From Tubiluchus corallicola (Eukaryota > Animalia > Priapulida), in contig JAQGDQ010000209.1 of NCBI GenBank assembly GCA_030141605.1, positions 322,779-386,778 of the forward strand: 64,000 bases of DNA, read 5' to 3'. Shown here piece after piece: positions 15,101 to 24,100 of this stretch. Both the position numbers and the translations under genes were made by a program. Within the stretch, counting starts at the first letter, position 1. The number at the start of each line of letters is the position of its first letter. The notes under the pieces were generated by a model that searched no databases, was not told the origin of the DNA, and saw nothing but the letters and a program-made list of their open reading frames with translations.

Positions 15101-18100
15101 TTATTGCCAAGTATGTAAATAATACTAAATATGTTTTACTAAAACTAATAATGACACATCTGCTTCGGCACGTGGGAAGCTTCTTGTACTTGCCTACAAT
15201 CCATTAAGCCTGTATGGCTAGCTGTCAGTCAAATAACTGCTTAAGATGCATTTCTGATCCTGATCTGTACACTTTGAAGCTCACAGAGCTTACTGAATAG
15301 CTGAATAATGCAATTAGCTTTGCACTTTCACCACTCAGCACTACATGACCTTATGGGGCCCCTAGGCTAATGAAATTATGGAGTCCATTCACACAGAGCC
15401 ACCCTCTAATTTGCTCATACTCGTCTCAAATATTTTTGTGATGTATTTCAGCAACTCTTGCATAGCTGGGAGCCCCACATTTCAAATAAAGGATTTCAAA
15501 GAAGTCTCAAACAGGGTTTCTTTATCTCTCAAATGAGGAGCCACATTGAATGTGGATTTTCCAACTTCCTGGTCTCCATTTTTAAAGTCTAAATTTTATT
15601 TTAAGTTATATGAATTATTCGTCATTGCATAGTATGAGCTTGAGAGGCGGCCGTAGGCTACAGCCCATACTAGCCTGTAGGGTAATCCAGCCCTGAGCAC
15701 TGGGGATTTGTTTACGAGAAGTGCCTTTCATTTTACCTTGTAGTAATCTCACCAATGTGCAGTATTAAAGTTTAGAAGATGAAACTGTACAGTAGGTCAA
15801 GTTGTAAAGTACTAACTAAAATTTGACCAGGTATGAAAATTGTAAGCTTTAAGTTTAAACAAATTTAATTGTAAGACTTCATTTTTTAGTGTAACGAACT
15901 CACCTTTGTTAATCTATACTTTGCTTGTTCATTTGCAGAAGTCACATCTGTTTTGGATTACAGAGTGCGGAGCAGATGCGCCAGCAGTCTCTGGTGCATG
16001 TTGTCAGCAAAAATTTGTACTCTCAAGATAATACACGGACACCTGTTGAGTATGGGGTTTTAGACCACAAAATGGTAAAACATGATTTGGTTTTATCACA
16101 GATAAGTGAATTCTGCTGCTGCTGCTATTTCTAATTATATTTGAACTTTCACAGATAAGAATCAAAAATTATACAAGGCCTTTGTGTTTTGCAAAACAAA
16201 CGTTTATATTGTGTTTAGATGTGTATGCACCTTGTTGCCAAACTTACTCAATGCCAAGTTTTTTGGCTTTGAAGTAGCTAATAGAGAGATTTTTTAGTTT
16301 TTAAAGTATGTATCTGTTACTTTATGTCACAAATCATAATACATTTGCCACATACTATATCGCTAGGAATGTTTTAGGGCACTAGTGATAAGGACACTAA
16401 GTGTACAACTTGTGGAAAGGGATTGGCTGATTGTATTGGTCACTATGGCTACATAGACTTGGAACTGCCCGTGTTTCATACCGGCTATTTCAGAGCCATT
16501 ATAAACATTTTACAAACCATTTGCAAAGTAAGTAAGAAGTAATTATTTTCCTAATTTTGATATTACAAGTTAAATATGTGCTTATGGACATGCAAGTGAA
16601 ACCTTTTTTTACAATTTTTGTTACTAAGATTGTGTGATATGATTGTACCAATAAATCAAATTTTGATGAATAGTTGAAACCTTAAAGGACAAGAAAGCGT
16701 GTACCTGAAGCATTATTATTATTATTATTATTATTATTATTATTACTATTATTGTTATTATTCATATAAAAATAATCCATTTTGTTGGACTGCTGTCTGC
16801 AAGTATTTACTCTAGTAACAATATACCACCCTGATTTTTATTATTAACAATATCATACCGGCAAACACTGAAGTTAAACTAGTTTAATTTGAACAATGAA
16901 CGTGACCAAAGCTAATTATACTAGTTAACTGGTCAGCATACTCATTTCTTAAAATGCAAGTATCCTTTTCTTATGTGTAGATGCAAGTCTGGGCAGTTAC
17001 AAAGTCCCCGGGAAATTGTCAACAGTATTGCTCTAATTTGAACAAATAATAATAAGTGTCACCTTGCCTTAACAAAGAATTTAACTAAAATGTTTACATC
17101 TATAGAGGATTGAAAGTGTATGCACAAATAACGAAACTAATTACATTTGACTTTTATCTAACATGTGTGCTTCTGGTATTTCTGTTTTTTCTGGCTTATG
17201 GTATCTTTTAGAAGCTTTTTACTTTGCTTTCAGTTTCAATGCCCTTTTGTATTTGATTATAGGTTTGAAATTAAATTTTTATTTGTTTGAGGTATAGAAT
17301 TATTAAAGTATAAGATTGAAGCCCCAAGATGATATATTATAAGTGTTTAAATTGTTTTTCTCATTCATGTCATCAACAGTGTCAAGTGTTGCCGCTTCTA
17401 TTTTCTATATTACTACTATTGTGTTAGGTTTAGTTTGTTTTAGAAATCTTCAGTCTTGTTTAACATTGTTTCCGTTGACAGTCTTTGCTGCTACTGTGAT
17501 CAAATGTTTCAACCAAAGTCTTCTGAAATTGACACAAAGCCAAAGAGTAGTCATCATGAGTCACACAAAGCAGCGTTTATTACTTTGAACACGTAAGATC
17601 AGTTGCAGTAAAAATTACGTATCTTTGAAGAGTAATTCTTGTTTGATATGCTGGATTTGTTGTCTCACTGCAAATTTTATATGCATGTATAAATTAATGG
17701 CATCCCTTATTACCTTAAAATGGTGCATTCAGACTAGAGAGTTGCCAAGTCATTCACATTTGCCAGTTTACTCTCAGAGAGAAGTTGCGAGAGAACTCTC
17801 TAGTTTGAACGTGCCATAAGAGTTTCTTTTAGAATATTTATTATGCCAATCGGGACAAGTTGTGTGCATCACTTAAATACTATGTATACACACAATCTGT
17901 AGCCAGCAAAAAAGTTTCACGGCATCTGGTGAAAAGGGAAATTTACTTGGGTTTGAAAAGTTGCCTGCAAGATGCACCCAGTACTGAATGCGACAGAAAA
18001 TGTTATTTCTTCTTTTGGACTATCATCTGTTCTAAAGAGACAGAAGCATTTTAATCTCTCCTTTCTTGAGGATGCTGTTATGAGCAATGAAACTATGGCT

Positions 18101-21100: not shown

Positions 21101-24100
21101 TGATTCACTTAAAAATACATAACAATCAAACATAAATTTTTTTAGACACTACTACAACATAAAGGTTACGATAAAAACATATAGAATTTTATAACATTGA
21201 ACATATAAAGACGTATAATAATTAAACATATAAGACAGTAAAATATACAGAAGTATTACAAAACGTTAAAATTTAATGTTGCTGCCACAGCAGATGTGGA
21301 TACAATACAGTATTCAGAGTTGACCGTTTATTTAAAAAAAAATTTAAGAGATTATTATAAATTGAGATTAGAGAGATTAAAATATCAGTCACTGTTTTAG
21401 TTTTGTTTATAGTGTGTATGTTTTATAGCTATTTAGAAATTTTATTGGGTTCTGTTGACTCTATTATGTAAGGTGCATGCTGCCGAAATATACAAAAGGG
21501 GCTTTTATCAACACATTTATCAACTATTTTTGTCTGATAGCATTATAGTTCATAATAATGAACATGAACTATGGTCAGAAACTAAAGAAATAGTATTCTT
21601 ATTATTATGTTCTGCATGCTGAAACTCATCAGTGAAGATGAGCATATGAATAAATAAAATAGTTAGCTATGATAGGGACAGTTCGCTTAGCATATGCTAT
21701 GCAGTTTTGCATTAAATAACTCTGGTAGTCATTGATTTTCGTCTTTTTGTTAATCAGACATTCATCATTACCTACCCTTTCTATAAATAAAACCTTTCCT
21801 TTATGTGGTACGTAGTTGTTACCTACCAGCATGCTATTTTTAAGCAATTATTAAGTAACTATTTTTCAGAACTGCAGCCGGGTGCTGTTGCCCATATTGC
21901 AGAGAGATGCATATCTGGACTCGTTAAAGCGTCCAAATTTAAGCTACTTACAGCGAAAATCACTGAGAAAGAAAATCGGTGACAAGTGTAAGAAAACTGG
22001 TATTTGTCCTTACTGTGGAGATAATAACGGTATGCAATAGGCACTTTGTCATTTTTACGTAATATAACTACAGGCAGTCTCAAATTTGTTTGCATTTTTG
22101 AGGCACTGAAATATGACTAGTTCCCCACTGTAAATCAGCTAATTAGGAAAATATTGAATGCATTAATTTATATTTGATTTATGTAAACTGCATTATCATT
22201 ACCATGTTTAGAAAGTTAGTAGAATGATAATTGAGAGAAAAATTGACTGCAAAGTAAACAGTTTAACATTCACTATGCCCAGTGCAATAGTATCGAATTG
22301 TTTGTGTTTTGCTTCTTCAAAATTGTCTACAGCATGCAGCATACGAGTACGTATGAGAAAAATGTATATATTTATTTGTTTGTATTGCTGGAAATTATCG
22401 CCAATTTTTTTGTGTGAAATTCCCGACTTAGAACTGATACTTTTTATTACGATTTACCATATTTGGTATTATTTTTTGCAGATAGTAGTTAAACGATAAT
22501 TTAATATAATTCAGAATAACAATTTGTAAAATCTCAGTTTATTTAAATTGCTGGACTTTGCTTTGATGGCTTTCGATAAAGTTTGAATTTTTGTTGCGCT
22601 ACATGACAGGCTATTTTTTCTAGGGTTAGTTAAGAAATGCTCTTTGTTAAAGATCGTCCATGAAAAGTTTAAACTCGCTAAAAAGAACGATCCACTCATT
22701 GATGAGTATATAACCGGATTTACCGAAGCCATTCAGCACAACAAAGAACTGGAAGGAAACTTAACAAAAGCTCAGGTTTGTAGCTTTGCTTAAGCTTAGG
22801 TTTATAGTCTTTGCTTATAATTGCTAAAGTCGGGTTTGTAGTTTTTGTTTTGAAAACTGCTAAGCTCGGATTTGAAGTTTCTGCTTGTAAATGCTAAAAC
22901 TCAGGTTTGTAGTTATAGCTTAAAAAATACTAGGCTCGGGTTTGTAGTTTTTGCTTGTAAATGCTAAGTCAAGTCTGTATTTTTTTGTTTGTAAGTGTTT
23001 ATGAGCTGCATTAAAGGTGGAAAACCTGTATATTTTGTCTGTGCATATAATTAGTGTAACTCAACATTTTAAGCAACTATGTAATGTTTATGAAACTATG
23101 ACATTATTAGTTGTGTTCAACCTTGCACATAATATAGCTCATATCATTTCAGAATATCCTCAATCCGTTGATAGTTTTGGACCTTTTTAAGCGAATTCCA
23201 GAGGAGGTTAGTATTACCACATTTTACCAATGTGACCGTTGTCTATCCTTTAATGAAACTCTCGTTTATATTAATTCATTTTTTAGTATTTGCAAGCCAG
23301 TAGTTACAAAACTGATTAGCCAGGTCAATTTTTGACTGTTAACTGTTATGATACGCGTGAATTTTAAGAAGCAGCTCTTCATCTGTACGTTGCCACAAAA
23401 AATTTGTTCATGTTGTAGTTTTAAGCACTGTCACTTTGAGATGTTGAAATGATGTGAGTGAAACAAATTTTGCTTATATAATTCCCTGTTTGGTGCATTA
23501 TTAGGACATGCCTTTGCTAGTCATGAATCATGAAGCGGGTAGACCTCAAGATCTTATACTTACACGATTTCCAGTTCCTCCTCTGTGTATTCGACCTTCT
23601 GTTGTGTCGGAGGTTAAAGCAGGAACGTAAGTAAATTTATTTATTCATATGCAATTTTTTATTTCACTTCAATAGCATATCATAGTAACATACGTTTTAC
23701 ACACATCTATATCACTGCATAATTTTAGTTCAAGCTAGTAAGTTTAATGATTGCAATTAGGATCCATTTATGATAATGCTACTGCAGTAGTTCAAGCAGC
23801 TTATCATTGCTCGTAAGAACGGCTGAATGTGAGATAGAAACAAGGAGGGGAATCTATATACAAAAGTATGTCAAAAAGAAATAAGTAAAAAAATGTTATG
23901 GCTAAAATGAGAAAAGAACAGACGATGTGAGAATGATTTTATAATTATAGTTATTATGACAGAATGTGTAACAATGAATTCGGTAAATGATGAAAAGTAA
24001 TGGCGTACTTTGTAATTAACAGATAATGATTAAATTGCATACAATGATATTCCTGGGTTAAAAGAACTATGAAAGCACTATATGAGTTCATGATTTGTTG

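What the first reader, a model, noticed from the sequence alone, without database searches (positions are those of the whole stretch)
16528..21869. Intact intronless GPCR nested on the SAME strand inside an essential housekeeping gene
Seen: a 1077-nt intact GPCR ORF sits in the largest POLR3A intron (5342 nt), co-oriented with the host. Established: nested genes are more often antisense, and intronic poly(A) sites can truncate host transcripts. Inference: every POLR3A pre-mRNA contains the GPCR message, and use of the GPCR 3' end (ATTAAA near 19114, AATAAA at 20357-20362) would abort POLR3A after about 110 codons. Expression may therefore be mutually exclusive or co-regulated. The gene may be a retrocopy or one member of an expanded chemosensory-like family.
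Basis: partly seen in the sequence, partly recalled or inferred. Interest (0 to 1): 0.75.

Follow-up and report, generated by a model that had tools for sequence, protein, structure and literature searches.

The report
Orphan receptor gene inside POLR3A intron
In an invertebrate likely related to priapulid worms, an intact receptor reading frame with no introns sits on the same strand inside an intron of the RNA polymerase III gene POLR3A; this is an ordinary, well-precedented layout in which each gene is likely expressed on its own.

Summary
POLR3A has 33 exons and 1377 codons with no internal stop. Its largest intron (intron 3, 16528-21869, 5342 nt, after codon 110) contains a same-strand 358-codon class A GPCR frame (17972-19048). 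The host groups with Priapulus caudatus. The receptor falls in a clade of orphan GPCRs whose named members are all from P. caudatus, and it keeps 27 of 32 near-invariant family residues, so selection likely maintains it. It lacks the aminergic, adenosine and opsin pocket residues.

The regulatory reading is unsupported. The poly(A) hexamers are at background density (27 of 31 other POLR3A introns have them). No strong acceptor joins the receptor to POLR3A, and a truncated host transcript stops four codons into the intron.

The layout has direct precedents. GPR52 is a single-exon GPCR in the same orientation inside a Rabgap1l intron. In Drosophila, 29% of nested genes are same-strand, 73% of those are single-exon, and 39% of their hosts are lethal when lost. 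Expression could not be tested. Verdict: new member of a known kind, low interest.

The parts
12083..48012 (+). POLR3A (RPC1) host gene, coding span, 33 exons, 1377 aa
   Evidence: tblastn and spliced model, 0 internal stops; RPC1 homologues; sister to Priapulus caudatus, SH 100
16378..16527 (+). POLR3A exon 3, ending at codon 110, donor AAA|GTAAGT
   Evidence: Pfam RNA_pol_Rpb1_1 E 4.8e-18; donor score 6.7, rank 19 of 31 GT donors
16528..21869 (+). POLR3A intron 3, 5342 nt, GT-AG, phase 0, largest intron; read-through stops after four codons
17720..17817 (.). Short inverted repeat (24-nt arms, 83% complementary, 50-nt spacer) about 155 nt upstream of the GPCR ATG; possibly a small repeat-element relic
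   Evidence: raised contig depth and joints at this place in run X1
17972..19048 (+). Orphan class A (rhodopsin-type) GPCR, uninterrupted frame, 358 aa. The ATG at 17972 has A at -3 and gives an N-terminus with three N-glycosylation sequons; a second possible start is at 18080
19114..19119 (+). ATTAAA 66 nt after the GPCR stop; candidate poly(A) signal of the GPCR, untested
   Evidence: present; chance of a hexamer this close is 0.20
20357..20362 (+). First AATAAA downstream of the GPCR; candidate only
   Evidence: present; chance of an AATAAA within that distance is 0.86
21870..22029 (+). POLR3A exon 4, continuing in frame from exon 3
   Evidence: acceptor score 5.3 (in-sample) vs leave-one-out median 6.9 of 31 true acceptors

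Best explanation
An intact orphan class A GPCR frame, grouping with an expanded receptor family of Priapulus caudatus, lies on the same strand in POLR3A intron 3 and is likely an independent passenger gene with its own promoter and poly(A) site. Shown: the nesting, the intact frame, the seven-helix model and the family placement. Inferred: an old insertion of a family gene (RNA- or DNA-mediated, cannot be told) landed in the intron and was tolerated because a single-exon guest offers few splice sites; purifying selection has kept it. It is likely transcribed from a non-CpG-island promoter in the 1.4 kb upstream, in a narrow set of cells, and probably ends at ATTAAA 19114 or a later hexamer. 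POLR3A pre-mRNA normally splices exon 3 to exon 4 and discards the receptor sequence. Some transcriptional interference or leaky intronic cleavage in receptor-expressing cells is plausible as a side effect, not as a switch. The receptor likely signals through a G protein (DRY, NPxxY and the TM3-ECL2 cysteine pair are intact). Its basic pocket residues hint at an anionic ligand, which is a guess.
For: Frame far beyond chance (363 codons vs shuffle maximum 147). 7TM model with pLDDT 79 and pTM 0.76; Foldseek best hit adenosine A2A, TM 0.74. Family clade: SH 96 among 97 rows and 98/94 among 30 rows; every named member is P. caudatus. It keeps 27 of 32 near-invariant columns despite a branch of about 1.7 changes per site; leave-one-out 28 of 33 (0.85) vs 0.60-0.93 for eight family members. 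Simulated neutral decay leaves the frame open in 0.5% of runs at 5% divergence with indels and 0.6% at 15% without. Hexamers are at background. In-frame acceptors at the receptor start are weak: -6.7 (17972), -1.6, 1.5 and 2.5; the best ranks 53 of 284 AGs in the intron, and decoys that strong occur at 8.8 per kb. Precedent: GPR52 in Rabgap1l (PMC4372774), KTI12 in TXNDC12 with activity independent of the upstream promoter in a minigene (PMC3192792), and the Drosophila statistics (PMC3814207).
Against: No promoter, start site or 3' end was shown. CpG o/e just upstream of the receptor is 0.40-0.45, like the host's introns (0.44), so there is no sequence sign of a promoter. There is no close orthologue (best identities 23-33%), so dN/dS could not be computed and recent loss of function is not excluded. 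The receptor's branch is long and its place could be an artefact (warnings); I picked the rows. Whether the P. caudatus relatives are single-exon was not tested. Both candidate poly(A) signals lie 2.6 and 3.8 kb from the exon 3 donor, beyond the 0.5-1 kb median reach of U1 protection (PMC5499120), so some premature cleavage of POLR3A is possible.
Confidence: 0.72

Rival explanations
1. One reading: POLR3A transcripts are cleaved at the receptor's poly(A) site in a regulated way, or exon 3 is spliced in frame onto the receptor as an alternative last exon, so that receptor and full-length POLR3A are produced at each other's expense.
For: Exon 3 ends in phase 0, and AGs at 17972, 18038, 18044 and 18071 would join in frame. 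The exon 3 donor is average and the exon 4 acceptor below median. The hexamers lie beyond the usual U1 range (PMC5499120). Nested-gene-linked premature polyadenylation of hosts is known at imprinted loci (PMC11694760 passage) and interference was shown for KTI12/TXNDC12 (PMC3192792).
Against: The in-frame acceptors score no better than decoys, and in-frame position is expected for one AG in three. Hexamer density is background. Unspliced read-through stops after four codons. A 110-residue polymerase zinc-binding piece ahead of TM1, with no signal peptide, would have to cross the ER membrane (inference). Pol III is needed in all cells (established knowledge). In the documented cases the host terminates upstream of the nested gene, not at its 3' end (PMC11694760, PMC3192792).
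Confidence: 0.08
2. The receptor borrows the POLR3A promoter: a non-coding first exon is spliced directly to an acceptor upstream of the receptor, skipping POLR3A exons 1-3, like the shared first exon of the cholinergic locus (recalled).
For: An acceptor scoring 6.4 at 11946, upstream of the POLR3A ATG, and a CpG-richer stretch at about 10000-11200 suggest a non-coding first exon. An acceptor scoring 5.3 lies at 17833 and stronger ones at 17212-17434. No CpG-rich promoter lies next to the receptor.
Against: The non-coding exon is only predicted. Three coding exons would have to be skipped. Acceptors of that strength occur all along intron 3. The 17833 route carries a 19-codon upstream frame.
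Confidence: 0.08
3. The receptor is a recently silenced or freshly inserted copy that is still open by chance and is not expressed.
For: Long terminal branch (1.66-1.73). The usual TM6 Trp is Thr and the TM3 sodium-site Ser is Asn (alignments; site labels recalled). No promoter signature.
Against: Near-invariant family columns are kept as well as in other members. An unselected frame survives only a few percent of divergence. Family members also vary at the TM6 position. No second GPCR-like piece is in the window. As a weak hint only, X1 contigs over the receptor have depths (9.6-11.8) like those over unique intron DNA (11-13), with no sign of many young near-identical copies; the tool warns that depth is no copy number.
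Confidence: 0.09
4. Assembly chimera: the receptor region was joined into the intron by error.
For: No contig of X1 bridges the receptor region to exon 3 or exon 4.
Against: The host frame and splice sites are intact on both sides. Intron 3 has the same GC content as the other introns (0.33 vs 0.26-0.36). Four X1 contigs match 17020-19505 piecewise with 0, 1, 1 and 2 differing letters; X1 may be the source sample. The receptor and the host point to the same lineage.
Confidence: 0.03

Closest known systems
GPR52 in Rabgap1l (vertebrates; PMC4372774, passages read) and Gpr21 in Rabgap1 (mouse; PMC4813635, passages read)
   Same: Orphan class A GPCR in an intron of an unrelated host. GPR52 is stated to be single-exon and in the same orientation. 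That paper already proposed co-regulation or processing from the host pre-mRNA.
   Different: The host here is POLR3A and the intron is 5.3 kb. No orthology to GPR21 or GPR52 was shown (some P. caudatus relatives carry an automatic 'GPR21-like' name only). No conserved synteny and no functional link to the host were shown.
Same-strand nested genes of Drosophila melanogaster (Lee and Chang 2013, PMC3814207, passages read) and mammalian host/nested pairs (PMC11694760, passages read)
   Same: Single-exon guest in a long, 5'-located intron of a broadly needed host. In flies 28.7% of nested genes are same-strand, 72.5% of those are single-exon, and 38.85% of their hosts have lethal phenotypes (not different from opposite-strand hosts). 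In mammals orientation is broadly balanced and most pairs show neither correlation nor anticorrelation.
   Different: Expression pattern is unknown here; the organism is a probable priapulid.
KTI12 in TXNDC12 (human; PMC3192792, abstract and passages read)
   Same: Single-exon protein gene in tandem orientation inside an early host intron; the best model for possible interference.
   Different: There the interference was measured, and it appeared as exonization and intron retention upstream of the guest. Nothing of the kind is shown here.
Lineage-expanded rhodopsin-type orphan GPCRs of marine invertebrates (sea urchin surreal-GPCRs, Acanthaster putative olfactory receptors; PMC5442662, passages read) and the P. 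caudatus models auto-named adenosine A2b-like, histamine H2-like, opioid-like or GPR21-like
   Same: Divergent class A receptors with amine- or adenosine-receptor best hits, forming a lineage-restricted family with a tandem cluster (7 consecutive accessions on one 133,557-bp scaffold).
   Different: It groups with the priapulid family and not with the echinoderm rows in my trees. It is a solitary intronic copy in this window. No sensory expression is shown.

Membership tests
Class A (rhodopsin-type) GPCR | Pfam 7tm_1 above the curated cut-off | tested here: met
   109.6 bits vs 30.5, profile positions 2-260 of 260
Class A (rhodopsin-type) GPCR | Seven-helix fold with helix 8 | tested here: met
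   AlphaFold2 model, pLDDT 79, seven long helices plus short C-terminal helices; Foldseek TM 0.74 to A2A
Class A (rhodopsin-type) GPCR | DRY, NPxxY, TM2 Asp, TM6 Pro, TM3 and ECL2 cysteines | tested here: met
   D150-R151-Y152, N325-P326-x-x-Y329, P288, C126, C203 are invariant in alignment A1 (positions +36); the TM6 Trp is Thr
Class A (rhodopsin-type) GPCR | G-protein coupling | not testable with these tools
   needs a cell assay
Aminergic receptors / TAARs | Asp at TM3 position 3.32 (label recalled) | tested here: not met
   Tyr aligns to the beta-2 adrenergic TM3 Asp; TAAR rows lie outside its clade
Adenosine receptors | TM6 Asn and His and TM7 Ser-His ligand contacts (roles recalled) | tested here: not met
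   In the A2A alignment these are Lys, Tyr, Phe and Leu; only the ECL2 Phe-Glu is shared
Opsins | Retinal-binding Lys in TM7 (7.43, label recalled) | tested here: not met
   Leu at the position two residues before the TM7 Asn-Ser
Priapulid-expanded orphan GPCR family | Falls in a supported clade with the P. caudatus paralogues | tested here: met
   SH 96 (97 rows); 98/94 (30 rows); long branch, no one-clade test run
Priapulid-expanded orphan GPCR family | Single-exon structure shared with family members | not testable with these tools
   no genomic DNA of the relatives was available
Chemosensory receptors | Expression in sensory cells and response to external chemicals | not testable with these tools
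   no expression data
Same-strand nested gene | Whole coding region inside one intron of a co-oriented, intact host | tested here: met
Same-strand nested gene | Own transcription unit | not testable with these tools
   no start or end mapping possible
Retrocopy | Poly(A) remnant and target-site duplication | tested here: not met
   only A-run of 7 or more is at 21334; no convincing flanking direct repeat; such marks decay with age
Retrocopy | Intron-containing parent gene | not testable with these tools
   no whole genome held
Host truncation by intronic polyadenylation (alternative last exon) | Poly(A) signal or acceptor stronger than intronic background | tested here: not met
   P=0.28 for hexamer count; acceptors at decoy level; crude matrices trained on 31 sites

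The most novel reading that the evidence does not exclude
The receptor is made from the POLR3A promoter. In some sensory or post-mitotic cells the transcript is spliced onto the receptor and ends at its poly(A) site, so one promoter toggles between the catalytic subunit of RNA polymerase III and a surface receptor, and receptor-expressing cells turn down tRNA synthesis.
Probability: 0.07. Interest if true: 0.7.

Novelty: new member of a known kind. Interest (0 to 1): 0.2.

Why it matters
As best read, it adds one more case to a known class (single-exon orphan GPCR nested in the same orientation) and points to an expanded orphan receptor family in priapulids that my literature search did not find described. 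It would matter more only if RNA data showed the receptor sharing POLR3A's promoter or diverting its transcripts, which would link Pol III supply to a receptor-defined cell type.

Tried and rejected
Expression: no RNA holder listed. Run X2, guessed to be RNA, has one 151-nt contig on exon 3 with 11 differences and no cover over the receptor; this is no evidence either way. Neither run showed a splice-like joint among the 15 of 33 joints listed. X1 looks like DNA (even depth over intron pieces, very deep repeats) and has no cover over exons 2-4; the tool's filter can cause such holes.

Whole genome: none held, so there was no paralogue count and no dN/dS.

Synteny proxy: 0 of 15 P. caudatus family proteins found lie on a scaffold of the length of its POLR3A scaffold (101,433 bp), and no accession is adjacent. 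This is weak, because the search missed several of its own seed proteins and nested genes may be unannotated.

Other checks: the direct homologue search gave only 2 distant hits. The ESM Atlas gave generic 7tm_1 clusters. Rfam found 0 matches in 12000-48100. The sigma-70 promoter scan does not apply to an animal gene and was ignored. The first IQ-TREE run on POLR3A did not finish and was replaced by FastTree. The first automatic gene model misplaced three junctions, which were fixed by inspection.

Paper searches with no hit: nested gene + same strand + intron + GPCR and POLR3A + nested gene + intron. The search priapulid + GPCR + expansion + chemosensory listed 8 papers, none on priapulid receptors by title, none read. 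The library lacks most subscription journals, and no supplements were read.
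Full report
Observation. The only long frame in the region runs from ATG 17972 to the stop at 19048 on the + strand, 1077 nt and 358 aa. It matches Pfam 7tm_1 over the whole profile at E 2.3e-31. Its stop-free frame is 363 codons, against a mean of 91 and a maximum of 147 in 300 shuffles of the intron. With RPC1 proteins, I built a spliced host model: 33 exons from 12083 to 48012, 1377 aa, no internal stop (three junctions corrected by hand). Intron 3 is 16528-21869, 5342 nt, GT-AG, phase 0, after codon 110. 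It is the largest of 32 introns, ahead of intron 1 (3812 nt), with a median near 750. Four contigs of run X1 match 17020-17587, 17803-18335, 18341-19159 and 19168-19505 with 0, 1, 1 and 2 differing letters. They confirm the local sequence but do not bridge to an exon, and X1 may be the source sample.

Organism. In a FastTree of the host protein with 31 of the 120 listed RPC1 hits, it pairs with Priapulus caudatus at SH 100, with 82% identity over the first 589 residues against 66-73% for all others. No named nematode, kinorhynch, loriciferan, tardigrade or onychophoran was in the tree, so 'priapulid or close relative' is as far as this goes. Earlier scan notes on this genome say the same; they are not independent evidence.

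The receptor. AlphaFold2 on a 9-row alignment gave seven long helices plus short C-terminal helices (pLDDT 79, pTM 0.76). The best Foldseek match is adenosine A2A at TM 0.74. DRY, NPxxY, the TM6 proline and the TM3 and ECL2 cysteines are invariant across the alignment. It is not an aminergic, adenosine or opsin receptor by pocket residues: Tyr stands at the beta-2 TM3 Asp, and Lys, Tyr, Phe and Leu stand at the A2A TM6 and TM7 contacts (the roles of these residues are recalled). No close relative exists among 1.84 billion representatives (best 150 hits 23-33% identical, none at E 1e-30), but 3 of the top 10 are P. caudatus models. In a 97-row tree (hits P0124-P0199 of the 150, plus hits, limited to 200-520 aa) it joins a 14-row clade at SH 96. 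That clade holds 10 P. caudatus proteins and 3 unnamed Logan proteins. A 30-row IQ-TREE with rows I picked from that tree gives 98/94. Its branch is long (about 1.7), so the place carries some doubt. In P. caudatus, 15 family proteins were found on 9 scaffolds, 7 of them with consecutive accessions on one scaffold. This is an expanded family with a likely tandem cluster and dispersed copies.

Is it functional? It keeps 27 of 32 near-invariant family columns but only 36 of 186 variable ones. In leave-one-out tests it scores 28 of 33 (0.85), within the 0.60-0.93 range of eight family members. A simple neutral simulation leaves the frame open in 0.5% of runs at 5% divergence with indels and 0.6% at 15% without. 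Selection has therefore acted along most of the branch and until recently, unless the copy is a fresh insertion. No second GPCR piece is in the window. dN/dS needs an orthologue that I do not have. No retrocopy marks were found.

The proposed switch. The other introns have 79 in 26,485 nt, 27 of 31 have at least one, and intron 1 has 13. Downstream of the receptor 8.8 are expected and P(11 or more) is 0.28; counted with overlaps there are 12. A hexamer within 72 nt of the stop has a chance of 0.20, so ATTAAA 19114 is a fair but unproven candidate for the receptor's own end. A host transcript cut there would read four codons into the intron and stop, 1.4 kb before the receptor's ATG. It contains the receptor sequence but would not be its message. 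Splicing exon 3 onto the receptor is possible in frame at four AGs, but these score -6.7 to 2.5 on a matrix from the gene's 31 AG acceptors (leave-one-out median 6.9). The best ranks 53 of 284, and equally strong decoys occur at 8.8 per kb. These matrices are crude. Donor-like sites at 18424 and 19603 lie about 700 nt upstream of each and could supply that protection. Some leak is plausible; a regulated switch has no support in the sequence.

Mechanism. I take the receptor to be an independent passenger (0.72). Shown: nesting, intact frame, fold, family. Inferred: an old insertion tolerated because it has no internal splice sites, its own narrow promoter, normal exon 3 to exon 4 splicing of the host, and at most mild interference. 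Against this, nothing marks a promoter: CpG o/e upstream is 0.40-0.45, like the other introns at 0.44, whereas 10001-11200 upstream of POLR3A reaches 0.81-0.97. Rivals are a recently dead or fresh copy (0.09), the poly(A) or last-exon switch (0.08), a shared non-coding first exon (0.08; an acceptor scoring 6.4 at 11946 hints that POLR3A has one) and an assembly chimera (0.03).

Comparison with what is known. GPR52 is a single-exon orphan GPCR in an intron of Rabgap1l in the same orientation across vertebrates, and that paper already raises co-regulation and processing from the host pre-mRNA (PMC4372774, passages). Mouse Gpr21 lies in a Rabgap1 intron (PMC4813635, passages). In Drosophila 71.27% of nested genes are antisense, so about 29% are same-strand. 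Of these, 72.53% are single-exon, and 38.85% of their hosts have lethal phenotypes against 44.66% for antisense hosts, P=0.23 (PMC3814207, passages). In mouse and human the two orientations are broadly similar in frequency, nested genes prefer long 5' introns, and most pairs show neither correlation nor anticorrelation (PMC11694760, passages). KTI12 in TXNDC12 shows that a tandem single-exon guest can interfere with its host, through exonization and intron retention upstream of the guest (PMC3192792, abstract and passages). Lineage-expanded rhodopsin-type receptors in tandem arrays are known from echinoderms (PMC5442662, passages). Searches for a nested gene in POLR3A and for a priapulid chemosensory GPCR expansion (listing only) found nothing on point in a library that lacks most subscription journals; supplements were not read.

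Verdict. The feature is real and is a new member of a known kind. It noted like layouts in other genomes and one same-strand intronless guest in this genome (unchecked). Interest 0.2. The boldest reading left open, one promoter toggling between POLR3A and the receptor, has about 0.07 probability and would merit 0.7.

Noticed in passing
window 40073-41500 (+): POLR3A intron 26 is an AT-AC minor-spliceosome (U12-type) intron: 5' ATATCCTT, a TCTTTAAC branch-like box just before the final AC; using it restores the conserved frame. One paper listing for POLR3A + U12 + minor intron, not read; conservation in other animals not tested.
   Followed up: partly
window about 1770-7700 (-): Multi-exon papain-family cysteine protease gene (cathepsin L-like; Peptidase_C1 and I29) head to head with POLR3A; a CpG-richer stretch at about 10000-11200 may be a shared promoter region.
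   Followed up: partly
window 10485 and 11946 (+): Possible non-coding first exon of POLR3A: donor-like site at 10485 and acceptor scoring 6.4 at 11946, 137 nt before the ATG. Prediction only.
   Followed up: partly
window about 60700-62350 (-): Broken LTR-retrotransposon pol relic (RT_RNaseH, E 8.9e-29) in several frames, GC 0.42-0.49.
   Followed up: no
window 12127-15938: POLR3A intron 1 is long mainly through high-copy repeats (contig depths up to thousands in X1), unlike intron 3, which is mostly unique.
   Followed up: no
window about 2340-2600 and 38500-38750: A 27-nt minisatellite in the protease gene and a long compound trinucleotide tract in POLR3A intron 24, which gives a spurious 118-aa ORF.
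   Followed up: no
P. caudatus proteins P0125, P0127, P0128, P0143, P0149, P0274, P0301-P0306, P0327-P0329: One expanded orphan GPCR family carries unrelated automatic names (adenosine A2b-, histamine H2-, opioid-, melanocortin-, GPR21-, melanopsin-like); 7 have consecutive accessions on one scaffold.
   Followed up: partly
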